Positions 9,565 through 25,134 of a DNA stretch of 50,989 nucleotides are shown one piece after another. Source of the stretch: a virus (lineage: Duplodnaviria; Caudoviricetes); the IMG/VR virus record IMGVR_UViG_3300006755_000004, positions 1-50,989 of that record; one strand, written 5' to 3'. How positions within the stretch are numbered: the first letter of the stretch is position 1; each line of letters opens with the position of its first letter. The position numbers were made by a program, and so were the translations under genes. Below the pieces are notes generated by a model. The model was not told the DNA's origin. It saw only the letters and a list, made by a program, of their open reading frames with translations, and did not search any database.

Positions 9565-9781
9565 ACAGCTCCAGCTCCTCGTTGGCGTGTGCGGGGCGGA
9601 CGATGTGGTGCGCACCCGTCAGACTGCCACGGTTGATGTCGTGCCAGCCCATGCTCGGGCCGGTCGTCCATCCACCCTTGAGTTCCTTGTCGTGGTTCTT
9701 CGCCTTGTCGGCCGTCGTGAAGACGCCACGGACGCGGGTTCTCGGTCCTTCGGGATCCTGGATCAGGAGGAAGATCTGCAT
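9533..9781 (-). CDS. hypothetical protein (82 aa)
   Basis: MQIFLLIQDPEG...VRGVFTT; GGAG RBS. Confidence 0.6.
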   Translation of the reverse strand: MQIFLLIQDPEGPRTRVRGVFTTADKAKNHDKELKGGWTTGPSMGWHDINRGSLTGAHHIVRPAHANEELELYGHHPDAANV

Positions 9782-9800
9782 GTTGTTCTCCGGGGAAGTG

Positions 9801-9836
9801 CGAGGGGGACCGGCCGGTGCTGGCTGGTCCCCCTCG
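9801..9836 (-). terminator. GC-rich hairpin, probable terminator
   Basis: CGAGGGGGACC...GGTCCCCCTCG inverted repeat after the 9873 stop. Confidence 0.55.
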
Positions 9837-9872
9837 GGATCGTGCTGGTGGTGCGGTGTTGCCGGCAGTAGA

Positions 9873-10448
9873 TCAGCCGAGGTCGTCCTCGTCGAAGTCG
9901 TCCTCGACCGGCGCGGGCTTGGCCTTGGCGGCGGGGGCCGGACGGCGGCGACGGCGGGAGACCGGCTTCGCGGCGGGCTCCTCGGCCTCCTCCTCGGCCT
10001 CCTCGACGACCGGCTTGGCCTTCGCGGTGGCGGCACCCCGGCGACGGCGGCTCACGGGCTTGGCCGGGGGCTCCTCCGCCTCGTCCTCGTCGTCCTCGAC
10101 GGGCTCGGCCGCCTTCTTCGCGGCGGCCTTCTTGGCGGTGGCGGTCGCGGCCTTCTTCGCCTTGGCCTCGGCCTCCTCGCGCTTCTTGACCTCGCGGGCC
10201 TCGCGCTTCTCCTCGCGCTTGGCCTCGGCCTCCTCGGCCGCCGCGCGCTTCTCCGCCAGGACCTCCTGGTTCTCCGGCGACTTCTGGAACTCGATCCGGA
10301 GGGCGCAGGCCATCTGGACGGACTTGACGTCGACGTCCTCGTAGCCGGTCTTGTCGGCGATCCACTCGGCGAAGCGCTCGTGCAGGTCGCTGGGGTCCTT
10401 GTCGACGAGCTTCGTGAAGCGCTCGGTGTTCTCTTCGGCCTCGGCCAT
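9873..10448 (-). CDS. Lys/Ala/Glu-rich protein, paralog family member 1
   Basis: LHERFAEWIADKTG...DVKSVQMACALRIEFQKSPENQ shared with 16596-17069 and 20275-20868. Confidence 0.8.
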   Translation of the reverse strand: MAEAEENTERFTKLVDKDPSDLHERFAEWIADKTGYEDVDVKSVQMACALRIEFQKSPENQEVLAEKRAAAEEAEAKREEKREAREVKKREEAEAKAKKAATATAKKAAAKKAAEPVEDDEDEAEEPPAKPVSRRRRGAATAKAKPVVEEAEEEAEEPAAKPVSRRRRRPAPAAKAKPAPVEDDFDEDDLG

Positions 10449-10485
10449 GGTTATCTGCTCCATATCGAACGGGTGGGCACGACCA

Positions 10486-10508
10486 ACTATACCTCATATC
10501 GGCCGTGT
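10486..10508 (-). promoter_or_regulatory. putative promoter (ATATGAGG-TATAGT -10 box)
   Basis: Matches the -10/extended -10 part of the repeated early-promoter consensus; no clear -35. Confidence 0.5.
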
Positions 10509-13406: not shown

Positions 13407-13536
13407 TGGTCGGCCTCCGCCGAGGATCTGCCAGGGACGGCCCCGAGAACGGATTCTACGGGGTCGTAGGCGGCTCCGGGGCCGTCCCTGAGTACCTTTT
13501 GCCCGACGCGGTCGCGCCGAGCCGTTACGCGCCCGT

Positions 13537-14207: not shown

Positions 14208-14488
14208 CGCAGTGCCTCCATCCTCTCCACGGTCTCGGGGCAGTTGTCGGTGAAGACGTCGCCGCCCGGCTTGAGCGTCGGCCAGCCTTCCCGCTTCTCG
14301 GTTCTGTACTTGTTCTCGATGGAGGTCGTCGTCCGCCCCAGAGCGGCAGCGATCTCCTCGCGCTTGAACTCGTCCCACGCGTCCCGGAGGAACCGGACCT
14401 CGTCGCTCGTCCACAGCTTGCTGGAGTGGAACGCCGAGGTCCGGTTCTCCTGAACCGACCGGACACGAGCCAGGTCGGAGCGCTTCAT
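14204..14488 (-). CDS. Myb/SANT-like HTH DNA-binding protein
   Basis: WTSDEVRFL...EIAAALGRTTTSIENK. Confidence 0.7.
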   Translation of the reverse strand: MKRSDLARVRSVQENRTSAFHSSKLWTSDEVRFLRDAWDEFKREEIAAALGRTTTSIENKYRTEKREGWPTLKPGGDVFTDNCPETVERMEALR

Positions 14489-15459
14489 CAGCCGATCGCC
14501 TTCTTGCTGCCGCCCATTCGGTCCTGGCCGATGTCGGCCGTCCGGCCGTCGCGCTGGCCACGGTCGTACGCCTCGCCCACGATGCGCTGGCGATAGCCCT
14601 TGCCGTCCTTGTGACCCATGAGCCGCTTGAGCTCGTCCATCGCGTCCTTCACGAGCTTGTTGCGGTCGAACAGCACGAGCTCCGCACCGGACGTCGACTT
14701 GACCTGGTCGTCGCGGTACTTGCGCAGCATGGCGAACCGGTCGCGCACCTCGTTGAGGAAGCCCTGCGCGTAGGAGCGCTGGAAGGTCACCGGGGACGAC
14801 ACCGCGCGGTACGGCTCACCGATGTCCTTGCACCAGCGCTTGGCCGCCCGGATCAAGCGACCGCCGTCCTTCTTGCCCTTGCCCGCGTCGTCGACCTCCC
14901 ACGGGACGATCTCCCAGCTGGTGTCGATGACGGTGCCGAGCTCCGTGGCCTCGTGCCAGGCCTGGTTCATCAGGAAGGCGATGCGCTGCCACTTGATCCC
15001 GGCCTCGTGCAGGATGTACACGTTCTCGTCGAACGAGAGCTGCTTGTTGGGCTTGGGGTCGAGCTTGGCCAGCGCCTGGAGGCGCAGCGAGGTGTACACC
15101 ATCTCGACCAGGTTCATGTTGCTGGGGAACCCGACCAGGTAGCCGGAGCCGGAGGTCCAGCCGAAGAACTCGCAGTCGTAGTGCTTGGCGACCGCGATGA
15201 TCAGGTTGTACCACTGGTTGCCGAGCTTGTCGTTTGCCGGCATGAACGAGATGATCCGCTGCTCGGGCTCCTCGACGATGCCCCCGGCGAGCTGCCGAGC
15301 CGCGCTCAGCATGGCCTCGTCGATGGCGTACTTCTGCATCAGCTGCTCGGCCTTGCTGAGGTATGTCTGTGCGCCCTCAGGGTTGGTGTCGACCAGCGAC
15401 TGATACGTGTCGAGCAGGCCCTGGATCTTGGCCAGCATCGGGTTCTGCGTTACGGACAT
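14488..15459 (-). CDS. DUF2786-like domain protein
   Basis: MLAKIQGLL...EGAQTYLSKAEQLMQKYAID N-terminus, SYAQGF and AYDRGQRDG C-terminal patterns; start follows HH1 and GAGGAG. Confidence 0.75.
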   Translation of the reverse strand: MSVTQNPMLAKIQGLLDTYQSLVDTNPEGAQTYLSKAEQLMQKYAIDEAMLSAARQLAGGIVEEPEQRIISFMPANDKLGNQWYNLIIAVAKHYDCEFFGWTSGSGYLVGFPSNMNLVEMVYTSLRLQALAKLDPKPNKQLSFDENVYILHEAGIKWQRIAFLMNQAWHEATELGTVIDTSWEIVPWEVDDAGKGKKDGGRLIRAAKRWCKDIGEPYRAVSSPVTFQRSYAQGFLNEVRDRFAMLRKYRDDQVKSTSGAELVLFDRNKLVKDAMDELKRLMGHKDGKGYRQRIVGEAYDRGQRDGRTADIGQDRMGGSKKAIG

Positions 15460-15474: not shown

Positions 15475-15539
15475 GGACTCGTCAGCACCGGTACCATACC
15501 GGCGGACCAGCAGCGCTTCCCAGCGGGCTGGTTTCGTCC
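15475..15539 (-). ncRNA. type II hammerhead ribozyme HH1
   Basis: Minus strand: GGAC-GAAA-CCAGC...GCTGG-TC^CGCCGG-TATGGTA-CCGGTG-CTGACGA-GTCC; predicted cut 15505/15504. Confidence 0.93.
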
Positions 15540-15542
15540 TGG

Positions 15543-15692
15543 CTAGAGGAAGATGGACCAGATGAGGAAGGCTCCGAAGCTGCCTCCCAGGATGAAGACC
15601 GCGAGCACGACGAACATGCAGCCGAGCGCACAGCCCTTGCCGTCCTTGTCCATGTCGTGCTTGGTCCACCAGTTCTCGATGTAGCTCGCCAT
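15543..15692 (-). CDS. small single-TM membrane protein
   Basis: MASYIENWW...GCALGCMFVVLAVFILGGSFGAFLIWSIFL; TGATG coupling. Confidence 0.6.
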   Translation of the reverse strand: MASYIENWWTKHDMDKDGKGCALGCMFVVLAVFILGGSFGAFLIWSIFL

Positions 15693-15781
15693 CAGCCCAG
15701 CGCCTCCCAGAGGGGCTTGACAGCCGGGTTGCTCACCGGCATCGCCGGAGGCTCTTCCGTGACCCACACGTCTTCGTCCAT
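15692..15781 (-). CDS. 29-aa peptide
   Basis: MDEDVWVTEEPPAMPVSNPAVKPLWEALG; GGAGG RBS immediately after HH2. Confidence 0.55.
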   Translation of the reverse strand: MDEDVWVTEEPPAMPVSNPAVKPLWEALG

Positions 15782-15797
15782 GTGCAAGATCCTCCAC

Positions 15798-15872
15798 GAT
15801 CTCGTCAGCACCCGTACCTTACGGGCGGACGCTCCGTCCACGGCTGGCAACCGCGTGCGGAGCGTTTCGATC
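15798..15872 (-). ncRNA. type II hammerhead ribozyme HH2
   Basis: GATC-GAAA-CGCTCC...GGAGCG-TC^CGCCCG-TAAGGTA-CGGGTG-CTGACGA-GATC; stem II covaries (GATC/GATC); cut 15828/15827. Confidence 0.93.
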
Positions 15873-15884
15873 TGGCTGGGAGGC

Positions 15885-15980
15885 TCAGCCCCGCTGCGAG
15901 GCGATGTACGCCACGAGCAGGGCCAAGGTTAATAACCAGAACCATCTTCCTGAGCGGTCCGGCCGCTGCCTGTGGTTCAT
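15885..15980 (-). CDS. 31-aa membrane peptide
   Basis: MNHRQRPDRSGRWFWLLTLALLVAYIASQRG. Confidence 0.45.
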   Translation of the reverse strand: MNHRQRPDRSGRWFWLLTLALLVAYIASQRG

Positions 15981-15982
15981 GG

Positions 15983-16453
15983 TCAGTCCGTGGTCTCGAC
16001 GAAGCCCGCGTCGTCCCCGAAGTCGCTGGGGGCGTTCTCGTCCGGGATGCCGAACTCGCGACGCCGGTTGACCTCGTCCGGCGAGACGAGCTTCATCTGG
16101 CGACCCCTGAAGTCGATCCCGATGTCGTGGCGTGCCTTGAGCTCGTGCACCAGCCACGCCGGGTTGATCCAGAGCGGGACGTACATGGAGCCGTTGTTCA
16201 GCAGCTCGATGTACGCGGCCTTGATCAGGTCGTCGCACCCCATCTCGCGGAGCGTCTTGGGCAGCTCCAGCATCTCGGGCGTGGGGTCGGTGTTGCAAGG
16301 CCGGAGGTTGTAGTCGACCTCGTTGTTGTCCGCGTCGCGCAGCCGGAGCCGGTTGATCGCGTCGTTGGCCTTGTCCTCGTCGGTGAACACCGCCAGGTGC
16401 TCCTCGCGGTCCTCCTCGACCAGCACCTTGTAGATGTTCCACACAACGTCCAT
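15983..16453 (-). CDS. hypothetical protein (156 aa)
   Basis: MDVVWNIYKV...; GAGGAGG RBS right after HH3. Confidence 0.75.
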   Translation of the reverse strand: MDVVWNIYKVLVEEDREEHLAVFTDEDKANDAINRLRLRDADNNEVDYNLRPCNTDPTPEMLELPKTLREMGCDDLIKAAYIELLNNGSMYVPLWINPAWLVHELKARHDIGIDFRGRQMKLVSPDEVNRRREFGIPDENAPSDFGDDAGFVETTD

Positions 16454-16466
16454 GCATCCTCCTCGG

Positions 16467-16530
16467 GGACTCCTCAGCAGCGCCATCCAGCGCCGGACCA
16501 TCGGCTCCTTGCGGAGCTTAGGTTTCGTCC
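16467..16530 (-). ncRNA. type II hammerhead ribozyme HH3
   Basis: GGAC-GAAA-CC(TAA)GCTCC-GCAA-GGAGC(CGAT)GG-TC^CGGCGC-TGGATG-GCGCTG-CTGAGGA-GTCC; cut 16496/16495. Confidence 0.9.
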
Positions 16531-16595
16531 TTGCCACCCTGGCACCCTGGCCGAGGGACTCGAAGTCTCCTCGACCAGGGGCGCTCGGTGGGGTG

Positions 16596-17069
16596 TTACT
16601 TGGTGGTGGTCCGACGCGTCCGGCGGGTGCGCGGCTTGGGCGCGTCCTCCGTGGGCTCGGCAGCAGCCTCCGTGGCCGCCTCCGCGCCGTTCTCCGTGTC
16701 GGCCTCAGCGGCGGGCTCAGCGTCGTCCTTCGGGGCCTCAGCGGGCTCCTTGGGCTTCGCCTCGTCCGTCGCGGCCTCCTCGCCCTTGAGCTTGGCGAGC
16801 TCGGCCTCCAGCTTGGCGAGCTTCCGGGCCTTGGCCTCTTCCGCCTTCTTGGCGGCCTCGGCCTTGCGCTCCTTCAGCGCCTGCTGGTTCTCGTCGGACG
16901 CCTGGAAGTCCATCCGCAGCGTCACGGCGAGCTGGACCGTCTTCAGGTCCGGGGTGAAGCCCGTCTTCTCCTCGATCCACTTGGCGAACTGCTTGTGGAG
17001 CTCGGTGGGCTCGCTGGCCGCCCGCTCGACGAAGGTCTTCTTGGTCTCGGCGGTGGTGTTCTCGGCCAT
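16596..17069 (-). CDS. Lys/Ala/Glu-rich protein, paralog family member 2
   Basis: LHKQFAKWIEEKTG...DLKTVQLAVTLRMDFQASDENQ; AAGGAGG RBS after HH4. Confidence 0.8.
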   Translation of the reverse strand: MAENTTAETKKTFVERAASEPTELHKQFAKWIEEKTGFTPDLKTVQLAVTLRMDFQASDENQQALKERKAEAAKKAEEAKARKLAKLEAELAKLKGEEAATDEAKPKEPAEAPKDDAEPAAEADTENGAEAATEAAAEPTEDAPKPRTRRTRRTTTK

Positions 17070-17085
17070 GGTGTTTCCTCCTTGG

Positions 17086-17149
17086 GGACTCCTCAGCACC
17101 GGCTCTTACCGGCGTACGGCCAGCGCCTCCCGGCGGGACCGTTTCGTCC
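17086..17149 (-). ncRNA. type II hammerhead ribozyme HH4
   Basis: GGAC-GAAA-CGGTC...GGCCG-TA^CGCCGG-TAAGAG-CCGGTG-CTGAGGA-GTCC; GUA site, cut 17115/17114. Confidence 0.92.
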
Positions 17150-17570
17150 TGTGTATTGCATGCCGGCATCTCATCCGCTTGTGGATGGTTGCGGTTGCCG
17201 GCAGACCGTCCACCTTTCGACTTCCTGGCCAGAGGTGCCCCGAGCGGGGTGTCTCACTTGACCCAGGCTTGAAGAGGTGGAGTCCGTCGCTCGCTAGCAG
17301 CTTTCAGTACCAACCGGATGTGTGCGCTTCCGGCCTCCGCAGTGGAGGTCGGCTGCCCGTCCTCGGCCAGTCCAGTCGCTTCGCTCGCAACTACCGGTTT
17401 TGGGGAGTCCGGTTCCTGTCTAGAGTCAGCGGCCAGGACCGGGGTCCTGTGCGCGATCTCAGCCGTCTCTCTTGGCTGTCCTGCTCGGGTTCGCGGTCTT
17501 CGGGCGGAACCTCGACCCTCGGCCAGACCGGCCATCCGGGGAGTTCGTTCCTTGCCCTCGTCGCTTCCTG
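17150..17570 (-). ncRNA. candidate large structured ncRNA A (paralog of 21279-21597)
   Basis: About 420 nt between a promoter and HH4 with no convincing CDS; 5' ~90 nt and 3' end homologous to copy B. Confidence 0.6.
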
Positions 17571-17576
17571 AGTAGA

Positions 17577-17605
17577 ACTATGCGCCATATCTGGGTCCGA
17601 GGCAA
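17577..17605 (-). promoter_or_regulatory. sigma70-type promoter driving ncRNA A (TTGCCT-17-CATAGT)
   Basis: Exact 17-nt spacing; same -35 as the promoter at 21604-21632; upstream CCTACCTG/CAGGTAGG inverted repeat and A-tract. Confidence 0.7.
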
Positions 17606-17773
17606 CAACGCCCCTACCTGGTCAAACGCCGTGTTTGCGCAGGTAGGGGCATGTGCGAACTTCCTCGAAGTTTTTTTGACTTTCTTCGTTTCCGCAGGCC
17701 GGCATGAGTGCGACGCGTCATGGGGCGAATCGGGCGAACCCTATCGTCAACGGCGATTCACCCGGCCTCCGGC

Positions 17774-18175
17774 CTACCAGCAGCCGCCGTGGATTGGCGT
17801 GAACTTCATCGCGTCGCCTTCGGCGAGGAGCGCGGCCTTGTGGTACGTCGCCCAGCTGGTGGTGTACCAGACGTCGTCGTCCTTGGACGAGCCGTTGACG
17901 TTGTCCAGCTCCACACAGTACAGCGCAGGCTTGGCATGCTGGTCGATGACCTTCTTCCAGGCCACGACCGTGCGGTACGACTTGCACTTGCCGTTAACCT
18001 TGCGCGTGCACTCCTTGCTGGTGGTCTTGACCTTGTGGCTGCGCTCGGCCACGGCCTTGGTGGACTTGATGTCGTCGCGCAGGCCGTGCACGCTTGTGAT
18101 GGCCGGTGCCTTGGCGCTGCACGCGCTGATGCCGGCAATCGCGACGAAGATGACGGGCGCGGTCCTGATCCGCAT
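17774..18175 (-). CDS. putative lipoprotein
   Basis: Signal peptide with lipobox-like GISAC; AAGGA RBS. Confidence 0.7.
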   Translation of the reverse strand: MRIRTAPVIFVAIAGISACSAKAPAITSVHGLRDDIKSTKAVAERSHKVKTTSKECTRKVNGKCKSYRTVVAWKKVIDQHAKPALYCVELDNVNGSSKDDDVWYTTSWATYHKAALLAEGDAMKFTPIHGGCW

Positions 18176-18205
18176 GGGGTTCCTTCGCTCGTGTAAGGGG
18201 ATGGA

Positions 18206-18240
18206 GCGCCCCGGTCGGGCCGGTTGCCTGACCGGGGCTC
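18206..18240 (-). terminator. hairpin, probable terminator
   Basis: GCCCCGGTCGGGC...GCCTGACCGGGGC inverted repeat. Confidence 0.55.
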
Positions 18241-18270
18241 GTTCGCTCGTTACGTGGCCGCGTAGGGCGG

Positions 18271-18615
18271 CTAGAGGGGCACGAGGTCGTACAGCTTCCC
18301 GTCCGAGTCGCGCACGACGCGGGTGCCGTCCTCCTTCTCGCCCACCAGCTCGAAGTGCAGGTCCTTGCCGGCATCCGGGTTGGCTCGCTGCGGGAAGCCG
18401 GAGTTGTCGAGCGACTCCAGACGCCAGCTGTTGCCGGCAGACAGCACGGTGATGTTCATGCCGCCGTCCGTCATCAGGAAGCGCACGGCGTTGCGGACCG
18501 AGGACTCCTGGGCTCCCTTGGGCAGCCGGTTCATGATGTCCTGGAGCGTGACGACCTTGCCCACGTTGTTGGACAGAACCTCGACGACGGTCGGACGGGT
18601 CTGGATGCGAGTCAT
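18271..18615 (-). CDS. winged-helix-like DNA-binding protein
   Basis: VVEVLSNNVGKVVTLQDIMNRLP...SVRNAVRFL...WRL pattern; AAGGAGG RBS. Confidence 0.6.
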   Translation of the reverse strand: MTRIQTRPTVVEVLSNNVGKVVTLQDIMNRLPKGAQESSVRNAVRFLMTDGGMNITVLSAGNSWRLESLDNSGFPQRANPDAGKDLHFELVGEKEDGTRVVRDSDGKLYDLVPL

Positions 18616-18635
18616 TGTGCAGTCCTCCTTGGGGA

Positions 18636-19049
18636 CTAGTTGTTGCTGTCGTTGCGCTGTGCCGGGACGGTGCCCTCGGCGTCCTTGGCCTGGTACATGC
18701 GGGCCGGTCCGAACTCGACCTTGCCCTCGTGCTCCAGGACGCGCCACACGGCCGCGCGCTCCATCTCGTTGAGCCTGCCGCCCTTGGCGATCTCGAACTG
18801 GTGCTCGGCCATGGCGAACAGGAACAGCGCGCGGAGCTGCATCAGCGAGCTGTAGGCCAGGCCCTGGCGGACGTGCGGGCGGGTCTGCTCGCGCTTCTGC
18901 TTGGATCCGAGCCGGTACATCGCCAGCTGGTACTCGGTGGCGAACTGCAGGTGCTCCTCGAACGTGTTCGGGTCGAGCGGCATGCCCGTTGCCTCGGCCA
19001 CGGTCTCGGCGTCGAACGCCACCTGGATCCTGTGCTTGCGGTCGTACAT
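18636..19049 (-). CDS. hypothetical protein (137 aa)
   Basis: MYDRKHRIQ...; AAGGAGG RBS after HH5. Confidence 0.75.
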   Translation of the reverse strand: MYDRKHRIQVAFDAETVAEATGMPLDPNTFEEHLQFATEYQLAMYRLGSKQKREQTRPHVRQGLAYSSLMQLRALFLFAMAEHQFEIAKGGRLNEMERAAVWRVLEHEGKVEFGPARMYQAKDAEGTVPAQRNDSNN

Positions 19050-19064
19050 GTTGGTCCTCCTTCG

Positions 19065-19117
19065 GGACTCTTCAGGAGTGCCGTCCAGCACCCGACCTCC
19101 TTTCGGAGGTTTCGTCC
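19065..19117 (-). ncRNA. type II hammerhead ribozyme HH5 (minimal)
   Basis: GGAC-GAAA-CCTCC-GAAA-GGAGG-TC^GGGTGC-TGGACG-GCACTC-CTGAAGA-GTCC; cut 19094/19093. Confidence 0.95.
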
Positions 19118-19121
19118 TTGG

Positions 19122-19310
19122 TCACATGTCGTTGAGAACCTGCCGGATGCAGTCCTCGCTCATGAAGGGGTAGTCGCGGCGGATGAGCTCCGCGATCTGA
19201 GCCTTCTGGTTCAGCGACGGCGACGCCGCCTGGAGGGGCGCAGCGCTGCGATCAGCTCGCCCAGGAAGTCGGCGAGCAAGTCGATGAAGAACATCGCGCA
19301 CCTGCCTCAC
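19122..19310 (-). CDS. hypothetical protein; frame ambiguous (an overlapping 27-aa ORF MFFIDLL...RRRRRR is also possible)
   Basis: GTGA coupling to the upstream ORF; the alternative ATG has an RBS-like sequence. Confidence 0.35.
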   Translation of the reverse strand: MRQVRDVLHRLARRLPGRADRSAAPLQAASPSLNQKAQIAELIRRDYPFMSEDCIRQVLNDM

Positions 19311-19465
19311 TGTCCAGCCGGAGGACCGAACAGGTCCTGCGCGTCGGCGTCCGGCGGCTGCACCTGCTCCGTGGGCGTGTGGCCTCGCGTCTCCGCCTGG
19401 ATGACCGGGTCAGCCTCCGGAGGGGCGGCGGGCTCGTGGCCGTTGTGCGGGGTGGGGACGCTCAC
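19307..19465 (-). CDS. Pro-rich hypothetical peptide
   Basis: GTG start overlapping the upstream stop; AAGGAG RBS. Confidence 0.5.
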   Translation of the reverse strand: MSVPTPHNGHEPAAPPEADPVIQAETRGHTPTEQVQPPDADAQDLFGPPAGQ

Positions 19466-19686
19466 TTGCTGATCTCCTTCTTGGTCACCGGGATGAGGAG
19501 CCCATGCTCGCTCATCGACACCATCTTGCAGAATCCGACGAGCTCCCGCACGATGCGGGGCGGGGCGCTGTGGATGACGACATAGTCCTTGTTGACCACC
19601 CCGTCGAAGATCGCGAACGTCGACATCTTGATGAGGCCGTCGGCGTTCATGATGTAGTCGTACACGGCCTTGCGGTCGTTGTCCAT
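19462..19686 (-). CDS. hypothetical protein (74 aa)
   Basis: AAGGAGG RBS. Confidence 0.7.
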   Translation of the reverse strand: MDNDRKAVYDYIMNADGLIKMSTFAIFDGVVNKDYVVIHSAPPRIVRELVGFCKMVSMSEHGLLIPVTKKEISK

Positions 19687-19704
19687 CTCGTCCTCCTTGG
19701 GGAC

Positions 19705-19863
19705 TTAGGCCAGCTCCATGCCGGCATCGTATCCGCACTGGGCATGGGCCCACACGGTCTGTGCATTCTCGCGATCGATGAACAGCCCCATCTCGTTGTC
19801 CGCGTCCTCGTCGCAGAGCTGGCAGCTGTCATCGTCCATGAGCTCGCGCTCGTCCTCGTCCAT
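19705..19863 (-). CDS. small acidic Cys/His protein
   Basis: MDEDERELMDDDSCQLC...HAQC; TGATG coupling. Confidence 0.55.
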   Translation of the reverse strand: MDEDERELMDDDSCQLCDEDADNEMGLFIDRENAQTVWAHAQCGYDAGMELA

Positions 19864-20177
19864 CAGATCGCGTCCACCTTGTCGAGGTAACGCCGGAGCG
19901 CGGCGCGCACCGACTGCGGCTTGACGCCGTAGCGGCGTGCTAGGCGGCCTACCGAGTGGCAGTCGCCGCCTTCCTTCAGGAACGCTCCGTAGAGCTGTGC
20001 ACCGCCCAGCGGGAGCCTCTTGTAGGGCCGAGGCTTGCGGCCGGTTGCCCGCACGATGACCTTGCGGATCGTGCTCTCGTTGACGCCCAACGCACGGGCG
20101 GTCGCCGAGTTGTTCTGGTCGTGCCTACGCCACGTCTTAACGACCTCGTCGTCGCTCGGCAGCGGGATCAGACCCAT
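19863..20177 (-). CDS. HTH DNA-binding protein (two HTH-like units)
   Basis: NNSATARALGVNESTIRK and VGRLARRYGVKPQSVRAAL; AGGAGG RBS after HH6. Confidence 0.7.
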   Translation of the reverse strand: MGLIPLPSDDEVVKTWRRHDQNNSATARALGVNESTIRKVIVRATGRKPRPYKRLPLGGAQLYGAFLKEGGDCHSVGRLARRYGVKPQSVRAALRRYLDKVDAI

Positions 20178-20192
20178 GACCATCCTCCTGGG

Positions 20193-20263
20193 GGACTCGT
20201 CAGTACGGCCACTCAGCCGCAGACCGCCCCGGTCCTGTGGTAGCGACCGGGGCGGTTTCGTCC
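20193..20263 (-). ncRNA. type II hammerhead ribozyme HH6
   Basis: GGAC-GAAA-CCGCCCCGGTC-(10)-GACCGGGGCGG-TC^TGCGGC-TGAGTG-GCCGTA-CTGACGA-GTCC; cut 20222/20221. Confidence 0.94.
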
Positions 20264-20274
20264 TGGGGTGTTGC

Positions 20275-20868
20275 TCAGTTGTCCAGCGCGCCGCAGCAGG
20301 GCTTGGCGTCGTAGGCCATGTAGTTGTCCTCCAGGCTGGACTCGCCGGAGTCGATCATGTCCGAGTAGATCAGGTGGGTCAGCTCGGTGTGGCTGCTGAC
20401 CAGCGCGGTCTCCTTGGAGAAGCCCTGCTTCGCGGTCTTCTTCTTGGCGTCGGCGCACCCGAACTTGTGGACCTCGGGCTCGTTGCCGCCGTAGATCACC
20501 GTCAGCTTGACCGGCTCGCTGGGCTCCTCGGCCTTGACCTCGACCGGAGCCTCCTCGGCCTTCGGCTCCTCGGCCTTGACCTCGCCCTTGATCTCGGCCA
20601 GCATCTTCTCCAGCTTGGCCTTCTTGCGCTCGGCCGACGCCTTCTTCAGCTCGGCCGCCTTGGCCTTGCGCTCGGCCAGGCTCTTCTGGTTCTCCGGGCT
20701 GGCCTGGAAGTCCATCCGGAAGGAGACCGCGAGCTGGACCGTCTTGACGTCGACCTTGACCCCGGTCTGGATGTACAGCCAGTGTGCGAAGTCCTCGTGC
20801 AGCTGGGTGGGAGCCTTCTTGGCGAGCTCTTCGAAGTTCTTCGGGGTCTTGGGGGAGTTGGCAGCCAT
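20275..20868 (-). CDS. Lys/Ala/Glu-rich protein, paralog family member 3, with extra C-terminal domain
   Basis: LHEDFAHWLYIQTG...DVKTVQLAVSFRMDFQASPENQ. Confidence 0.8.
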   Translation of the reverse strand: MAANSPKTPKNFEELAKKAPTQLHEDFAHWLYIQTGVKVDVKTVQLAVSFRMDFQASPENQKSLAERKAKAAELKKASAERKKAKLEKMLAEIKGEVKAEEPKAEEAPVEVKAEEPSEPVKLTVIYGGNEPEVHKFGCADAKKKTAKQGFSKETALVSSHTELTHLIYSDMIDSGESSLEDNYMAYDAKPCCGALDN

Positions 20869-20911
20869 GGTGTCCTCCTTGGGGACTCGTTCGGTTGGCC
20901 TTACAGTAAGA

Positions 20912-20940
20912 ACTATACTCCATATGGAGCCAGTTGGCTA
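20912..20940 (-). promoter_or_regulatory. repeated early promoter (TAGCCA-17-TATAGT)
   Basis: Consensus ...ATGGAG-TATAGT with 17-nt spacer. Confidence 0.7.
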
Positions 20941-20961
20941 CTCTGGAGTGCAACTTGTTTG

Positions 20962-20999
20962 CCGGCAAGCCGGGGAGCTGGTGGGCTCCCCGGCTGCCA
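20962..20999 (-). terminator. hairpin, probable terminator
   Basis: AGCCGGGGAGC...GCTCCCCGGCT inverted repeat. Confidence 0.55.
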
Positions 21000-21011
21000 G
21001 TCGCGCTAGTT

Positions 21012-21197
21012 TCAGCGCTGGATCTCGTCGGGACCGGGCGTCCCGAGCGGGTTGTCGACCTGGATCAGGTCCCGGCCGTCCGAGTCGGTCGGCAGGGGCC
21101 GGTTGGTGATCTGGTCGCCGCTCTTGACCTCGGCCTTGGGGCCGGGGCTGCCGGGCGGGTTGCTCGCCTGCGGGACGCGCTTGGGCAGGATGCCCAT
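21012..21197 (-). CDS. Pro-rich hypothetical protein (61 aa)
   Basis: MGILPKRVPQ...; AAGGAG RBS after HH7. Confidence 0.65.
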   Translation of the reverse strand: MGILPKRVPQASNPPGSPGPKAEVKSGDQITNRPLPTDSDGRDLIQVDNPLGTPGPDEIQR

Positions 21198-21213
21198 GGT
21201 GTTCTCCTTCGTG

Positions 21214-21278
21214 AGACTCCTCAGGACCGCCATCCAGCGGCCGACCCTCGGGGCGTTGCCGCCCGTCGGGTTTCGTCT
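21214..21278 (-). ncRNA. type II hammerhead ribozyme HH7
   Basis: AGAC-GAAA-CCC..GGGCG-GCAA-CGCCC..GGG-TC^GGCCGC-TGGATG-GCGGTC-CTGAGGA-GTCT; compensatory A-U pair in stem II; cut 21243/21242. Confidence 0.92.
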
Positions 21279-21597
21279 TTGGTATTCGCATGCCGGCATC
21301 TCCGGCACTGCGTTCGCTCCGCCCTCGCGCCTTGCCAACCTCTCGGATGTTCTCTCGTGGGGTGGCTGGTTCCGTGTCTCCCTAGCCAGTCCCGCGTCCG
21401 TCCCCGAGGAGTTGCGCGCTACTACCTTCGCTGCCGTTTTCTTGTGGAGGGTCGGTGCCCTGTCTCCGACGCTGCATTTGCTGCTACCGACCTGTCGCCT
21501 GGCCGCCTTGCTCGGTGTTCGCGTTCTTCGGGTGGAGCCTCGACCGTCGGCTGGAGTCGCCGTCCCGGGAGCTTCGCTCGCCGCCCTCTCGCTTACA
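21279..21597 (-). ncRNA. candidate large structured ncRNA B (paralog of 17150-17570)
   Basis: About 320 nt between a promoter and HH7; homologous blocks shared with copy A. Confidence 0.6.
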
Positions 21598-21603
21598 GGA
21601 CTA

Positions 21604-21632
21604 ATCATGCTCCAGATCCACGAGAAAGGCAA
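21604..21632 (-). promoter_or_regulatory. sigma70-type promoter driving ncRNA B (TTGCCT-17-CATGAT)
   Basis: Duplicate of the 17577-17605 architecture. Confidence 0.7.
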
Positions 21633-21892
21633 CAACCCGTCTACCTGGTCAAACATGATGAATGCCCTGGTAGGAGGCTTGCCGGCATTCTGAAAGTTTT
21701 TTGAAGAACTTTCGTTTGACCAGGCCGGCATGAGTGCGTGGAACGAATCGGGTCGAATCGGGCTCAGCCCCGGTGCGCGGTCCTACGTGGCCCGTAGGCG
21801 GCTCCGCGCGGGCTCGCCGGGGCAACGGGGCTCCCGCGCGCTGCGCGCTCGCGTACGGGGCGCGTAGGGGTGCGCACGGCCCCACAACGCGA

Positions 21893-21927
21893 GAGAGCCC
21901 CGCTCCCTGGTTCGGGGCGGGGCTCTC
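21893..21927 (-). terminator. hairpin terminator
   Basis: GAGAGCCCCGC...GCGGGGCTCTC just after the 21944 stop. Confidence 0.65.
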
Positions 21928-21943
21928 GGTGGGGCGGGGTTGG

Positions 21944-22309
21944 TCAGTCGCGGTCGGCGCAGCGGTTGAGCTCGCGGAGCGCCTTCTGCATCGCCTTGCG
22001 CTCGTAGGCCTCACGAGCATTCTGGATGCCGGAGGTCGAGCCGCCGACGTTGCCCTCGATGAGCTGCTCGGTGGCGTCCACCATCCAGTCCTCGATGCCT
22101 CGCTTGCCGGCACGGTTCCAGCGGGTCTGCAGCTTGGCGGTCAGGTCGGCGTTGGCCTGCGCCTCCAGCAGGTTCTCCATCGTGCCCGGCAGGACCATCT
22201 CGCCAGCGGCGAACGCGTCGGTGAAGCGGGCCTGGACGGTCAGCAGCTGCTTCGCGGCGGAGAGGGCCAGGAGCTCGACGGTCTTCGCGGTCTTCTCGGA
22301 GTTCAGCAT
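21944..22309 (-). CDS. hypothetical protein, cassette gene
   Basis: Own promoter, GAAGCCCCAAGGAGG RBS and terminator. Confidence 0.75.
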   Translation of the reverse strand: MLNSEKTAKTVELLALSAAKQLLTVQARFTDAFAAGEMVLPGTMENLLEAQANADLTAKLQTRWNRAGKRGIEDWMVDATEQLIEGNVGGSTSGIQNAREAYERKAMQKALRELNRCADRD

Positions 22310-22354
22310 TGGGTGCCTCCTTGGGGCTTCGTTCCGGTTGGCCTTACGAGAACT

Positions 22355-22383
22355 ACTATACTCCAGTCTGGAGGTTCGCGCTA
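22355..22383 (-). promoter_or_regulatory. repeated early promoter (TAGCGC-17-TATAGT)
   Basis: Consensus match. Confidence 0.7.
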
Positions 22384-22414
22384 CTCCAGATCGAAGATTC
22401 TTTCTACTGCCTCA

Positions 22415-22443
22415 GGCCCGCACCCCGGTGTGGGATGCGGGCC
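22415..22443 (-). terminator. hairpin terminator
   Basis: GGCCCGCA...TGCGGGCC. Confidence 0.55.
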
Positions 22444-22461
22444 GGTTGCCGGCAGTTGCGC

Positions 22462-22821
22462 TCAGCCCTCCAGCGCGGGGCTCGGGGGCGTGTAGCCCGT
22501 CCGCTCGATCGCCACGATCAGCATCGCCCGCAGCGCGGGGACGTCGGGCGAGTCCGAGTTGACCACGTCGTCGTACAGCTCACGCGCGGTCGCCTCCAGG
22601 TCGGTCACCAGCTCCATGCACTCCGGGACCATCGAGTCGTACAACGCGCAGCTGCAGTAGCTGTTCGAGCCGCACCCGCAGCCCGTCGCCTTGAGCGAGA
22701 ACAGCTCGCCCGTCTCGTCCTTGATCACCAGCATCGCGACGCCCGCAAGGTCGTACCGCTCCTGCGTGATGTCCACGTCGCCGAGGACCGTGTAACCGGG
22801 GATCGTGTAGTCGCTGCTCAT
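22462..22821 (-). CDS. hypothetical Cys-cluster protein, cassette gene
   Basis: MSSDYTIPG...ATGCGCGSNSYCSC; GAAGCCCCAAGGAGG RBS. Confidence 0.7.
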   Translation of the reverse strand: MSSDYTIPGYTVLGDVDITQERYDLAGVAMLVIKDETGELFSLKATGCGCGSNSYCSCALYDSMVPECMELVTDLEATARELYDDVVNSDSPDVPALRAMLIVAIERTGYTPPSPALEG

Positions 22822-22859
22822 GGCCGCCTCCTTGGGGCTTCGTTCGGGATGTTGATAGA

Positions 22860-22888
22860 ACCTTACTCCATCTGCACAACGGGCGCTA
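22860..22888 (-). promoter_or_regulatory. repeated early promoter (TAGCGC-17-TAAGGT)
   Basis: Spacer contains the conserved TGTGCAGATGGAG. Confidence 0.65.
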
Positions 22889-22917
22889 CCCCTTTGTGCA
22901 GATTTCTTGCCGGCAAG

Positions 22918-22954
22918 GGCGGAGCCCCGGCTCCCTGGGGAACCGGGGCTCGCC
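22918..22954 (-). terminator. hairpin terminator
   Basis: GAGCCCCGG...CCGGGGCTC. Confidence 0.6.
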
Positions 22955-22964
22955 TTCGGGTTGG

Positions 22965-23288
22965 TCAGACGGTGCCCGGCTCGACCGGGATGATCGCCTT
23001 GGTCCCTCGGAACTCGCCAGCGTCGACGTACGCGCCGAGCTCCGTCTGCATGAGCGTTGCCAGCCACGTGGCGTCCATGTGGTCGGGAACCTCCCAGAAC
23101 CCGTCCAGTGCGACCTGCTCGTCGATCGCGTTCAGCAGCTCGTCGCGCTTGGCGACCAGCATGTCGAGCGTGTTCTCCTTGAGCAGGGTCGGCACGACCG
23201 GGTTGAGCCGGTTGAGGTCGTACGACAGCACAGACACCTGGATGGCGACCTGGTGCTTCTCGTGCTCGATGGAGTGGATCTCGCTCAT
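22965..23288 (-). CDS. hypothetical protein, cassette gene
   Basis: CCCCCAGGAGG RBS; own promoter and terminator. Confidence 0.72.
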   Translation of the reverse strand: MSEIHSIEHEKHQVAIQVSVLSYDLNRLNPVVPTLLKENTLDMLVAKRDELLNAIDEQVALDGFWEVPDHMDATWLATLMQTELGAYVDAGEFRGTKAIIPVEPGTV

Positions 23289-23342
23289 CGGGGCCTCCTG
23301 GGGGCCTCGGGGCCGACCCTCGCGGTCGGCCTTACACTAAGA

Positions 23343-23371
23343 ACTATACCCCATCTGCACATGCGTGGAAA
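23343..23371 (-). promoter_or_regulatory. repeated early promoter (TTTCCA-17-TATAGT)
   Basis: Spacer ATGTGCAGATGGGG. Confidence 0.7.
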
Positions 23372-23449
23372 CCCCTCGGGGCAACTTTGTGCAGAATCAG
23401 TAGGTGGCCGTTTGCCGGCATGCCGGCACGAGGCCGGACGCGGGTAGCC

Positions 23450-23483
23450 GAGAGGCCCTCTTCGGCTGTGGAGAGGGCCTCTC
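23450..23483 (-). terminator. hairpin terminator
   Basis: GAGAGGCCCTCT...AGAGGGCCTCTC. Confidence 0.65.
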
Positions 23484-23498
23484 TGGGCTCGGGCGGGG

Positions 23499-24209
23499 TC
23501 AGCAGGAGACGCAGACCCGGAACTCCTTCCGCGTGCACTGGCCGTAGTAGGTCGGGCCGGTCCGCTCGATCGGCTCGGTGCGGATCTTGGTGTTGGCGTA
23601 GGTGACCGGCTGCCGGCAGTCGGCGCAGATGGTCTTGGTGTAGGTCCACTCGAAGCGGTAGTCCTCCGGGACCGAGCCCGGCTTGTGCAGCTCGGTGGCG
23701 TCCGTGCCCTGTCGGGTCGCGTCGATGCCGGGGACCTGGACGACGTAGGTGAAGCGCTCGGTGCCGAACCTACGGTGCTCGCCGTGGTCGACGACCCGGA
23801 CGACCTCGACCTCTCCGGCGGGGCAGCGGTAGCCGTGGGGGCGCTCGCCCGGCAGGAAGAACAGCTTGTCGCCGACCTGGTGCTCGGCACCCTCGACGAT
23901 CTCCGGCTTGGACTCCTCGACCGGCGCGGTGGCGGCGGCCTCGGCCTCCAGGGCGGCCAGCGCGGCCTTCTCGCAGGTCTTGCAGACCTTGCGGCCACCG
24001 GTGATGCGGGCGGCGTCCAGCGCGTCCTGGATGCGCTCGTAGCTGGCTCCCTGGGCCAGACGGCCACGGGTCAGGACGCCACAGGCGTTCTCGGCGTAGT
24101 AGGCGACGACCCCGGTCTCGTTGATGTTCGCGTCGCTCTGGTTGCTCGTGGTCTTGCAGGCGATTCCGGCGATGTGGTTGGTGGCTCGGTTGTAGCGGAT
24201 GCTGAACAT
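23499..24209 (-). CDS. hypothetical multi-domain Zn-binding protein, cassette gene
   Basis: MFSIRYNRATNHI...CKTCEK...CADC...CVSC; GAGGAGG RBS. Confidence 0.72.
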   Translation of the reverse strand: MFSIRYNRATNHIAGIACKTTSNQSDANINETGVVAYYAENACGVLTRGRLAQGASYERIQDALDAARITGGRKVCKTCEKAALAALEAEAAATAPVEESKPEIVEGAEHQVGDKLFFLPGERPHGYRCPAGEVEVVRVVDHGEHRRFGTERFTYVVQVPGIDATRQGTDATELHKPGSVPEDYRFEWTYTKTICADCRQPVTYANTKIRTEPIERTGPTYYGQCTRKEFRVCVSC

Positions 24210-24251
24210 TGGGTGCCTCCTCGGGGCTCCGTTCCCTGCCTTACGAGAGTA

Positions 24252-24280
24252 ACTATACTCCATCTGCACATGCCGCGCTA
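24252..24280 (-). promoter_or_regulatory. repeated early promoter (TAGCGC-17-TATAGT)
   Basis: Spacer GGCATGTGCAGATGGAG. Confidence 0.72.
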
Positions 24281-24399
24281 CCCGTTTCCACAGAATTGTT
24301 GAAACGGATTTGCCGGCCTCCTGCAGGCTCCAGAGGGGCGTGTGGGCTTTAACCTACAGGCCGCATCTCCACAAGCCGGCAGACAGCCGCCTACACATG

Positions 24400-24440
24400 C
24401 AGGAGCCCCGCCTCCTCCGGTTGGAGGGGCGGGGCTCCTG
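24400..24440 (-). terminator. hairpin terminator
   Basis: CAGGAGCCCCGCC...GGCGGGGCTCCTG. Confidence 0.65.
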
Positions 24441-24446
24441 GCCCTG

Positions 24447-24719
24447 TCAGACCTCGCCGTCGAACTCGACCAGGTGCGCGTAGTCCAGGTCCATCTGGTC
24501 GGGGTCCTGGCTCTCGACCTCGATCATCCGGTAGCCGACCGGGTTGACGTCGTCCATCGCGGCCCAGTAGGCGTAGGCGACCGGGTCGCCCTCCAGCACC
24601 TCGACGACCTCGTGCCACGGGCCACGGATCCGGCCGGTCGCCTCGACCGTGCCGTGGACCTCCATCGTCGCGCGGATCCGGTTGAGCAGGTCCTCGTTGG
24701 TGTTCTCGGCGTCGAACAT
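24447..24719 (-). CDS. hypothetical protein, cassette gene
   Basis: MFDAENTNEDLL...; CCCCAAGGAGG RBS. Confidence 0.72.
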   Translation of the reverse strand: MFDAENTNEDLLNRIRATMEVHGTVEATGRIRGPWHEVVEVLEGDPVAYAYWAAMDDVNPVGYRMIEVESQDPDQMDLDYAHLVEFDGEV

Positions 24720-24755
24720 CTCGGCCTCCTTGGGGCTCTCTTGCTTACGAGAGTA

Positions 24756-24784
24756 ACTATACTCCATTCGGGGTGGAGGCGCTA
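24756..24784 (-). promoter_or_regulatory. repeated early promoter (TAGCGC-17-TATAGT) embedded in a long inverted repeat
   Basis: TTCGGGGTGGAGG-cgctac-CCTCCACCCCGAA; the hairpin could also terminate the upstream gene. Confidence 0.7.
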
Positions 24785-24808
24785 CCCTCCACCCCGAACT
24801 AGTTGCTG

Positions 24809-25057
24809 CTACTTGGAGTCGGGCTGGAAGGTCTCGCCGACCCAGTAGCCGGTGCCCACCGCGCCCCAGCTGACCGACTGGTAGCCCTCGGCCTTCATCT
24901 TGTCGGAGAGCTTGACCAGAGCGTCCTGGCCGTTGCGGACCTTGAAGGACTCCAGGGTCTTGCGGTCCTCGCCGTAGCCGGTCTTGATCAGGACCTGCGC
25001 CCAGCCGTTGCCCAGGCTGCGGAACTCGATGCGCTTCTGGATCAGGGTCTCGGCCAT
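24809..25057 (-). CDS. hypothetical protein, cassette gene
   Basis: GAAGCCCCAAGGAGG RBS. Confidence 0.72.
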   Translation of the reverse strand: MAETLIQKRIEFRSLGNGWAQVLIKTGYGEDRKTLESFKVRNGQDALVKLSDKMKAEGYQSVSWGAVGTGYWVGETFQPDSK

Positions 25058-25105
25058 GGTTGCCTCCTTGGGGCTTCGGGCGGCTCGTCCGCCCTCATGA
25101 GTAGA

Positions 25106-25134
25106 ACTTTACTCCATCTGCACATGGCTGGCTA
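25106..25134 (-). promoter_or_regulatory. repeated early promoter (TAGCCA-17-TAAAGT)
   Basis: Spacer GCCATGTGCAGATGGAG. Confidence 0.68.

What the first reader, a model, noticed from the sequence alone, without database searches (positions are those of the whole stretch)
17115..17570. Candidate new large ncRNA (copy A, about 455 nt) bounded by a promoter and a ribozyme
Seen: after the promoter TTGCCT-17-CATAGT come about 420 nt with no RBS-led ORF, ending at HH4. The 5' part (AAGCGACGAGGGC...CGAACTCCCCGGATGGC...GCCGAGGGTCGAGGTTCCGCCCGAAGACCGCGAACCCGAGCAGG) aligns with copy B, with frame-breaking indels. Copy A also shares GGACTGGC, ACATCCG..GTTGG and a terminal TGCCGG/CCGGCA stem followed by TGC(G)AATAC just before the ribozyme. 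Inference: a structured RNA whose 3' end is matured by the hammerhead. It could be a protein sponge, an anti-defence decoy or a scaffold. I do not recognise it as tRNA, tmRNA, RNase P RNA or an intron.
Basis: partly seen in the sequence, partly recalled or inferred. Interest (0 to 1): 0.85.

Follow-up and report, generated by a model that had tools for sequence, protein, structure and literature searches.

The report
Ribozyme-released double-pseudoknot phage RNA
Cultured Streptomyces phages of this group each carry two copies of an undescribed non-coding sequence, whose mutations preserve a predicted fold with two pseudoknots, between a promoter-like site and a hammerhead ribozyme that likely cuts it free as a 456-base RNA, possibly a decoy for a host protein.

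Summary
The feature is real. Window 17115-17570 (minus strand) belongs to an undescribed non-coding RNA family of cluster BN Streptomyces phages. It occurs twice in 9 of 9 cultured BN phages; 44 distinct sequences were collected (217-438 nt upstream of the ribozyme). A promoter motif precedes 37 of 42 copies with upstream DNA, and a type II hammerhead follows all 38 full-length copies (predicted cut at 17115, giving 456 nt). No ORF is conserved. Compensatory changes support a long 5' hairpin (kink-turn pattern at its base), two tandem pseudoknots (best in B/Y types; the second is unproven in copy A) and swappable 3' arms. No Rfam family matches, and ten paper searches found no description. Against: folding z-score about 0, only three helices pass a tree-aware covariation test, and RNA-run contigs do not show a discrete transcript. 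The hammerhead is one of seven general processing ribozymes in this region, a layout known since 2011; the scan noted such an array before on a look-alike genome. Function is untested; my best guess is an RNA acting in trans as a protein decoy or scaffold.

The parts
17610..17650 (.). Inverted repeat just upstream of the -35 box; likely a binding site for a transcription factor (inferred)
   Evidence: Self-complementary. Present upstream of 39 of 42 copies with upstream DNA. As a pair it occurs only before copies A and B among the nine minus-strand promoter-like sites of this region.
17577..17605 (-). Promoter motif, -35 TTGCCT, 17 nt, -10 CATAGT; start site inferred near 17570
   Evidence: Motif in 37 of 42 copies with upstream DNA, 6-7 nt before the conserved RNA start. 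A promoter-only scan of viral contigs gave 40 matches: 10 were family copies, and the other 30 lacked the palindrome, a hammerhead and any profile match. It does not pass the generic sigma-70 scan.
17115..17570 (-). Copy A of the non-coding RNA, predicted mature length 456 nt
17493..17564 (-). Domain 1: long imperfect hairpin with a kink-turn sequence pattern at its base
   Evidence: Predicted from copy A alone. One column pair in helix P1c passes the tree-aware test (E<0.02, with a one-column register ambiguity). Kink-turn pattern (consensus recalled) in 38 of 40 copies tested.
17422..17478 (-). Pseudoknot a: 5-bp stem whose loop (17467-17470) pairs with 17422-17425, across an embedded hairpin
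   Evidence: B/Y-type copies: 4 bp, 100% paired in 12 sequences, 3 of 4 pairs with double changes. A/C-type copies: 96.9% paired in 16 sequences, 2 of 4 pairs with double changes. The best pair ranks first in the tree-aware test but at E=0.6.
17393..17416 (-). Pseudoknot b region: 5-bp stem with a C/A-rich loop, plus a short crossing stem
   Evidence: The main stem is 100% paired with one double change. The crossing stem shows double changes in B/Y/C types. Copy A has one base fewer there, so its crossing stem is uncertain; the descriptor scan did not list copy A.
17293..17388 (-). Domain 3: long arm with a conserved internal loop; shared with B, C and D types, absent from short Y types
   Evidence: Pairs 17346/17336 and 17367/17313 pass the tree-aware test (E<0.025, three pair types each, 100% paired in 15 sequences). 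Loop motif in 14 of 14 A and 14 of 14 B copies.
17209..17281 (-). Domain 4: arm specific to A-type copies, with an exchangeable tip
   Evidence: Base helix 100% paired with 2 double-change pairs; tip helices only 73-78% paired because three sequences carry another tip
17150..17203 (-). Terminal stem (17161-17203) and A/C-rich linker (17150-17160)
   Evidence: The 7-bp stem is invariant in 14 of 14 A copies. Other types carry different terminal hairpins. Linker composition.
17086..17149 (-). Type II hammerhead ribozyme, predicted cut after A17115
   Evidence: Rfam RF02276 at 19.7 bits, below the cut-off. Stems I-III pair and the core is canonical. Folds locally (stem I 0.97, stem III 0.86 at 120-nt span) but not in the unrestricted fold.
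16596..17083 (-). Ribosome-binding site (17077-17083) and 157-aa gene on the 3' cleavage product
   Evidence: phrog_20596, unknown function. All-helical model, mean pLDDT 71. No PDB match at E<=0.001. Structural relatives only among uncharacterised actinophage proteins.
21243..21632 (-). Copy B with its own promoter (21604-21632); predicted mature RNA about 355 nt
   Evidence: cut position counted from the sequence printed
21214..21278 (-). Type II hammerhead after copy B, followed by a 61-codon gene

Best explanation
This is a conserved non-coding sequence with covarying stems, lying between a promoter motif and a hammerhead motif, that is likely transcribed from its own promoter, likely cut free by the hammerhead at 17115 as a 456-nt RNA, and would most plausibly act in trans as a decoy or scaffold for a host protein during infection. 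Shown: sequence, two copies per cultured phage, lack of a conserved ORF, compensatory base changes. Inferred: host RNA polymerase starts near 17570 under control of the upstream palindrome; the hammerhead cuts as it is made, leaving a cyclic-phosphate 3' end on the RNA and a 5'-OH leader on the downstream mRNA; the RNA folds into a kink-turn arm, a tandem-pseudoknot core and exchangeable 3' arms. Guessed: the fixed core binds a host defence or regulatory protein, and the two divergent copies widen the range of targets. My odds: structured ncRNA 0.9; released by the hammerhead 0.8; protein decoy or scaffold about 0.45.
For: Two copies in 9 of 9 cultured cluster BN phages. 44 distinct sequences, 38 full length. 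Copy A matches 83-95% of its length in 9 related loci, against 73-86% for the downstream gene. The internal ORF varies from 11 to 129 codons in 14 A copies. My 111-pair model holds in 94.3% of cells with 13 double-change pairs; 0 of 500 shuffles reach this, and slid controls give 30-44% paired. Core pseudoknot region: 96.9% and 99.4% paired with 7 and 8 double-change pairs. Tree-aware test: significant pairs in helices P1c, P5f and P5i. The RNA fills the slot that a protein gene fills elsewhere: 50 of 69 type II hammerhead rows in unrelated viral contigs start within 11 nt of an upstream ORF end. It acts in trans rather than in cis because the downstream gene falls into at least four unrelated protein types and an A/C-rich linker separates body and ribozyme. 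Precedent: clustered phage hammerheads cleave in vitro (PMC3088659, passages); a phage RNA mimic blocks ToxIN (PMC3475682, abstract).
Against: Folding z-score -0.03. Models were partly drawn by eye from these alignments, which inflates the pair counts. The tree-aware test has little power (15-19 sequences), leaves pseudoknot a at E=0.6, and also passed non-pairing columns (one at E=0.05 in the badly aligned B tail, two at E=0.03 in A). Unrestricted folding pairs the hammerhead with the RNA body in most copies, including this one. Eleven full-length A copies and the D copy carry C instead of U at core position 4, and this window's ribozyme lacks an obvious loop I/tail pseudoknot, so cutting may be slow. 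No evidence at all points to a protein partner; the function is argued only by exclusion and analogy.
Confidence: 0.5

Rival explanations
1. The RNA is real and released by the hammerhead, but works without a protein partner, as a self-assembling oligomer or cage like ROOL and GOLLD.
For: Phage-encoded, pseudoknot-rich, with a fixed core and variable arms. ROOL and GOLLD form RNA-only cages (PMC12286853, passages). Several conserved unpaired loops are free for intermolecular contacts.
Against: Much shorter (217-438 nt) than ROOL (659 nt in that study) or GOLLD (often over 800 nt). No Rfam match. No tRNA genes nearby. I found no covarying loop-loop pairing for the domain 1 tip (by eye).
Confidence: 0.17
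2. The region is a cis-acting leader: a ligand- or protein-sensing RNA that controls hammerhead cutting, and so the stability or translation of the downstream gene (a natural allosteric ribozyme).
For: It always lies directly 5' of a hammerhead, ribosome-binding site and gene. Unrestricted folding predicts body-hammerhead cross-pairing. Tandem pseudoknots and kink-turns are common in riboswitches (recalled).
Against: The cross-pairing partners fall in different places in different copies, and span-limited folding restores the hammerhead in this copy. Downstream genes are unrelated between copy types. The same ribozyme type lies between ordinary genes with no such leader. Cobalamin and c-di-AMP models give no match.
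Confidence: 0.15
3. The conserved core is itself a catalytic RNA, or an RNA that binds the ribosome or a small molecule (for example a nucleotide second messenger) in trans.
For: Invariant unpaired bases join the two pseudoknots. The compact core survives in the 217-nt minimal form.
Against: No match to any ribozyme, riboswitch or tmRNA model apart from the hammerhead. The pairing that a c-di-AMP half-site would need is contradicted by covariation of helix P3a with its upstream partner.
Confidence: 0.12
4. It is not a functional RNA: a DNA-level element or a decayed coding region kept similar by recent descent and gene conversion.
For: Folding z-score about 0. All homologues come from one phage cluster. 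The two window copies share an identical 3' stretch that suggests recent exchange. No discrete RNA was seen.
Against: G-U wobble changes and pseudoknot covariation point to one RNA strand. It is more conserved than the neighbouring gene. Promoter and hammerhead bracket five divergent types.
Confidence: 0.06

Closest known systems
Clustered type II hammerhead ribozymes between phage and prophage genes (Rfam RF02276; Perreault et al. 2011, PMC3088659, passages read)
   Same: Same ribozyme type and the same gene-punctuating layout; seven in this window
   Different: In the passages I read, the ribozymes flank protein genes. Here the upstream unit is a large structured non-coding RNA with its own promoter.
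ROOL and GOLLD large phage and prophage ncRNAs (PMC12286853, passages read)
   Same: Phage-encoded, multi-domain, pseudoknot-containing, function unknown; GOLLD also has one conserved and one variable region
   Different: No sequence or structure match in Rfam. Shorter, two divergent copies per genome, no tRNA cluster, 3' end next to a hammerhead. Oligomer formation is untested.
Phage RNA decoys: pseudo-ToxI of phage TE (PMC3475682, abstract read); Racrs (PMC10651486) and viral sgRNAs (10.64898/2026.06.01.729453), both seen only in search listings
   Same: Phage non-coding RNA proposed to act in trans on a host protein; ToxI units are small pseudoknots (recalled)
   Different: Those RNAs copy a recognisable host RNA or repeat. 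This one has no tandem repeats and no host counterpart was found (one pattern only).
Theta ribozymes beside phage tRNAs (recalled, not looked up)
   Same: A small self-cleaving ribozyme sets the 3' end of a phage non-coding RNA
   Different: HDV-like ribozyme and a tRNA there; hammerhead and an unknown 217-438-nt RNA here
Candidate viral structured RNAs of PMC10690425 (passages and one supplementary table read)
   Same: Mined from IMG/VR intergenic regions; three candidates of 42-76 nt have a predicted Streptomyces host
   Different: All are at most 151 nt. Their alignments could not be read, so one could be a fragment of this RNA or of a hammerhead.

Membership tests
Type II hammerhead ribozyme (17086-17149) | Core CUGANGA and GAAA with an NUH triplet | tested here: met
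   CUGAGGA, GAAA and GUA
Type II hammerhead ribozyme (17086-17149) | Stems I and III closed by loops, stem II open | tested here: met
   Pairing; local fold
Type II hammerhead ribozyme (17086-17149) | Rfam RF02276 gathering score of 37 bits | tested here: not met
   19.7 bits; the best hammerhead in the region reaches 33.2
Type II hammerhead ribozyme (17086-17149) | Loop I pseudoknot with the 3' tail (in most, not all, members) | tested here: inconclusive
   Loop UAAGAG has little complement in the tail; many homologues with loop UGGAUG do (by eye)
Type II hammerhead ribozyme (17086-17149) | Self-cleavage | not testable with these tools
   Contig data cannot show ends
ROOL / GOLLD / OLE / raiA | Match to the family covariance model | tested here: not met
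   No hit at E<=10 for copy A, a Y copy, a C copy or six other loci
ROOL / GOLLD | RNA-only oligomer or cage | not testable with these tools
   Needs cryo-EM or mass photometry
tmRNA / tRNA | tRNA-like domain and tag reading frame | tested here: not met
   ARAGORN found none; RF00023 no match at E<=10; the frame after pseudoknot b is not conserved
Cobalamin riboswitch classes I and II | Model match, and a loop-loop contact of the P5-like hairpin | tested here: not met
   RF00174 and RF01689 gave no match (for RF01689 the first look found no candidate to score); the hairpin loop does not covary with a downstream partner (by eye)
c-di-AMP riboswitch | Model match and the P1 closing helix | tested here: not met
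   RF00379 no match; those bases covary with an upstream partner instead
RNase P RNA, group I/II introns, SRP RNA, T-box, 6S/Ms1 | Match to the Rfam models | tested here: not met
   Whole-library scans at E<=10
Type III antitoxin RNA or its phage mimic | Tandem repeats of a short pseudoknot unit | tested here: not met
   No repeat family within 17115-17570 among the 20 largest listed or in the self-comparison; no Rfam hit
Type III antitoxin RNA or its phage mimic | Neutralises a host toxin or defence system | not testable with these tools
   No host genome could be searched
Protein-coding gene | Conserved reading frame with a ribosome-binding site | tested here: not met
   11-129 codons across 14 A copies, no ribosome-binding site at that start

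The most novel reading that the evidence does not exclude
A new class of phage non-coding RNA gene: a modular, tandem-pseudoknot RNA built into the phage's ribozyme-punctuated early region, matured by a hammerhead, kept as two diverging copies that swap arms, and used to neutralise a Streptomyces anti-phage or regulatory protein (or a nucleotide alarm signal) by shape rather than by copying a host RNA.
Probability: 0.3. Interest if true: 0.9.

Novelty: new variant of a known kind. Interest (0 to 1): 0.72.

Why it matters
Few classes of large phage non-coding RNA are known (ROOL, GOLLD), and their functions remain poorly understood (PMC12286853). This family sits in nine cultured lytic phages of laboratory Streptomyces strains, so it can be tested directly: expression, ribozyme cutting, double deletion, pull-down and cryo-EM. 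It has a natural 217-nt minimal form and natural arm swaps that already map the essential core. If it is a decoy, it would be a new kind of RNA counter-defence in an industrially important genus. If it is not, it is still a new tandem-pseudoknot fold and a case of a hammerhead maturing a structured RNA.

Tried and rejected
Expression. Eight public runs were laid as assembled contigs (six RNA runs from four studies, one DNA, one of unknown kind). Relatives' sequence is present in RNA libraries, but contigs in X2, X10, X19 and X20 run into or across the promoter, so DNA or read-through is present. Only X17 has contigs ending near the predicted starts (17566 and 21599); this is one study and not counted as support. 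No end or joint at 17115 was seen.

Known families suggested by recalled resemblances (class II cobalamin and c-di-AMP riboswitches, tmRNA first pseudoknot, RNase P, T-box, SRP, SAM): rejected by Rfam scans and covariation. A loop-loop contact between the domain 1 tip and the core did not covary. An anti-Shine-Dalgarno role for the C-rich loop was dropped because the loop varies. A long-range pairing that RNAalifold proposed in A copies is invariant and absent from B copies. Antisense targeting: no complement of 14 nt or more elsewhere in the window except copy B.

Wider distribution. One pattern scan of 185,579 prokaryote genomes gave 12 matches, of which 1 was a true copy, on a 1.5-kb contig in a metagenome bin. 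Plasmids gave no match over 20% of the query. A covariance model of the A-type core over 99 sources found only copy A; it missed copy B, so it is not sensitive. Wollypog and Krampus carry the downstream protein family with only a gap of about 125 nt upstream, and Wollypog gave no model match. Streptomyces genomes that encode relatives of the downstream protein could not be searched, so prophage or host copies remain open. The downstream protein gave no functional clue.

Parsing faults: two B copies were clipped at 306 nt, and stem I was mis-parsed in three A rows; I did not use those rows.

Full report
Context. The window is a 51-kb virus record. The region matches nine cultured Streptomyces phages, eight of them over the whole 601-nt query at 86.5-91.3% identity. 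These make up the lytic cluster BN (PMC8852317, whole text). The finding lies on the minus strand among small genes of unknown function upstream of a helicase. No gene is annotated over the RNA body in the seven records I fetched. Nine promoter-like sites and seven type II hammerheads lie on this strand between 15.4 and 25.2 kb.

Observation. All quoted strings are present at the stated place. The order is: palindrome (17610-17650), -35 (17600-17605), -10 (17577-17582), 420 nt of RNA body (17150-17569), hammerhead (17086-17149), ribosome-binding site, and a 157-codon gene (16596-17069). The predicted cut follows A17115, which gives 456 nt from 17570. Copy B (21279-21597) has the same layout. 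A and B are homologous far beyond chance. The shared TGC(G)AATAC is in only 3 of 38 full copies, so it is not a family mark.

Family. Pattern and protein-anchored scans of viral contigs, metagenomes (19 of 54 matches were family members) and prokaryote genomes (1 of 12) gave 44 distinct sequences, 38 full length. They fall into five types: A (14 copies, 414-438 nt), B (14, about 319-333 nt; two were clipped by my parser), C (2, 408-415), Y (7, 217-259) and D (1, 333). Both copies are found in 9 of 9 cultured BN phages. Where flanking genes could be read they are BN-type genes. A promoter motif lies 6-7 nt upstream in 37 of 42 copies with upstream DNA, the palindrome in 39 of 42, and a hammerhead follows 38 of 38 full copies. 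A scan for the promoter alone returned 40 sites: 10 were family copies, and the other 30 had neither palindrome, hammerhead nor profile match. So I found this promoter type serving only this RNA.

Non-coding. The 93-codon ORF inside copy A has no ribosome-binding site; from the same start, 14 A copies give 11 to 129 codons, and two Y copies have no sense ORF at all. Yet copy A matches 83-95% of its length in nine related loci, more than the downstream gene at 73-86%.

Structure. Free energy alone gives no support (z = -0.03). Comparative evidence does. A 111-pair model of copy A holds in 94.3% of cells over 14 sequences, with 13 double-change pairs; none of 500 shuffles reaches this, and slid controls give 30-44%. 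The model was partly drawn from these sequences, so I also ran a structure-blind covariation test with a tree-based null. Significant canonical pairs fell in helix P1c of domain 1 (E<0.02, register ambiguous by one column) and in two helices of domain 3 (17346/17336 and 17367/17313, E<0.025). The top-ranked pair was a predicted pair in 5 of 6 alignments; the sixth (B tail) was a false signal at E=0.05, and two non-pairing or uncertain column pairs in A reached E=0.03. The conserved core is a 5-bp stem whose loop pairs four bases downstream across an embedded hairpin (pseudoknot a), an invariant GAC, and a second small pseudoknot with an A-rich loop. In 12 B/Y/D-type sequences pseudoknot a is 100% paired with double changes at 3 of 4 pairs; in 16 A/C/Y-type sequences it is 96.9% paired with 2 of 4. 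Its best pair is not significant in the tree-aware test (E=0.6). The crossing stem of pseudoknot b covaries in B, Y and C types but is one base short in A. A descriptor of the two pseudoknots with little sequence constraint, run over all loci then held, found only family copies plus one chance hit, and did not list copy A. The base of domain 1 fits the kink-turn pattern (recalled consensus) in 38 of 40 copies. The 3' arms are modular: domain 3 is in A, B, C and D, domain 4 only in A, and several terminal hairpins are exchanged between types.

The ribozyme. It has a canonical core and intact stems but scores below Rfam's cut-off. Clustered hammerheads between phage genes, type II included, were described in 2011, and representatives of three such arrangements cleaved in vitro (PMC3088659, passages). 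In unrelated viral contigs 50 of 69 type II hammerhead rows (some duplicated by overlapping loci) begin within 11 nt of an upstream ORF end. The RNA therefore occupies the place of a gene in a known processing layout. Against simple constitutive cutting: unrestricted folding mixes ribozyme and body in most copies, although the partners differ between copies and a 120-nt span restores the ribozyme here; and eleven full-length A copies carry a U-to-C change at core position 4.

Expression was not shown. RNA-library contigs cover the region but mostly cross the promoter.

Mechanism. The best-supported reading is a stand-alone RNA, transcribed from a dedicated and probably regulated promoter and freed from the downstream mRNA by the hammerhead. 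It likely acts in trans, since the downstream genes are of at least four unrelated kinds and would be severed from it. I found no long antisense target in the window and no likeness to a known ribozyme or riboswitch, which leaves binding by shape. A fixed core with exchangeable arms, kept in two divergent copies among small accessory genes, is what I would expect of a decoy or scaffold in a host-phage conflict. That last step is a guess, at about 0.45. The rivals are an RNA-only assembly, a cis-acting switch, a catalytic or ligand-binding RNA, and no function.

Relation to what is known. No Rfam 15 family matches the body of copy A, a Y copy, a C copy or six further loci at E<=10; targeted searches for cobalamin, c-di-AMP and tmRNA models were also empty. 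Ten full-text searches of the open-access library found no description of it; subscription papers are not covered. One survey lists three short candidate RNAs with a Streptomyces host whose alignments I could not read (PMC10690425); one may be a fragment of this RNA. In kind it resembles ROOL and GOLLD (PMC12286853, passages) and, by hypothesis, phage RNA decoys (PMC3475682, abstract), but it is a member of neither. Earlier notes of this scan recorded a hammerhead array on a look-alike genome; the lines shown did not mention the large RNA.

Verdict. A real, previously undescribed family of large structured phage RNAs with a likely ribozyme-made 3' end and unknown function. Novelty: new variant of a known kind. 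Interest 0.72.

Noticed in passing
window 15478-21275, minus strand: Seven type II hammerheads, each a short way upstream of a ribosome-binding site and start codon; five lie between ordinary protein genes.
   Followed up: partly
window 20912-25134, minus strand: Seven further promoter-like sites with a shared phage-type consensus, each before a small gene; their -35 box differs from that of the two ncRNA promoters.
   Followed up: no
window 16596-17069, 20275-20868 and 9763-10497: Three related genes (phrog_20596 for the first two; DNA repeat family D16 links the third) for an all-helical protein with a long helix and, in the first, an Arg/Thr-rich tail. Relatives occur in other actinophages and in Streptomyces genomes. 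A candidate partner of the RNA, untested.
   Followed up: partly
window 14380-14490 and 13415-13505, minus strand: Two long, very stable intergenic hairpins (-59 and -48 kcal/mol) in gaps that lack a hammerhead; possible processing or terminator elements.
   Followed up: no
A-type homologues, e.g. L001:14310-14375: Eleven full-length A copies and the D copy have a hammerhead with C in place of U at core position 4, whereas the window's has the canonical base.
   Followed up: no
window 5837-6601: A TerD-domain gene (Pfam PF02342, E 4e-13) in the replication and recombination region.
   Followed up: no
L031, L037, L052-L054, L057-L058 and other viral loci: Type II hammerheads that begin at or within a few bases of the upstream stop codon are common in unrelated phages of 45-69% GC.
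   Followed up: partly
L189:1128-1525: An A-type copy on a 1.5-kb contig filed in an Acidobacteriota metagenome bin; probably mis-binned phage DNA.
   Followed up: no
window 29950-30450: Long gap upstream of the primase gene with several repeats of a GACCCC-type motif and half-sites of the ncRNA promoter palindrome; a possible origin or control region.
   Followed up: no
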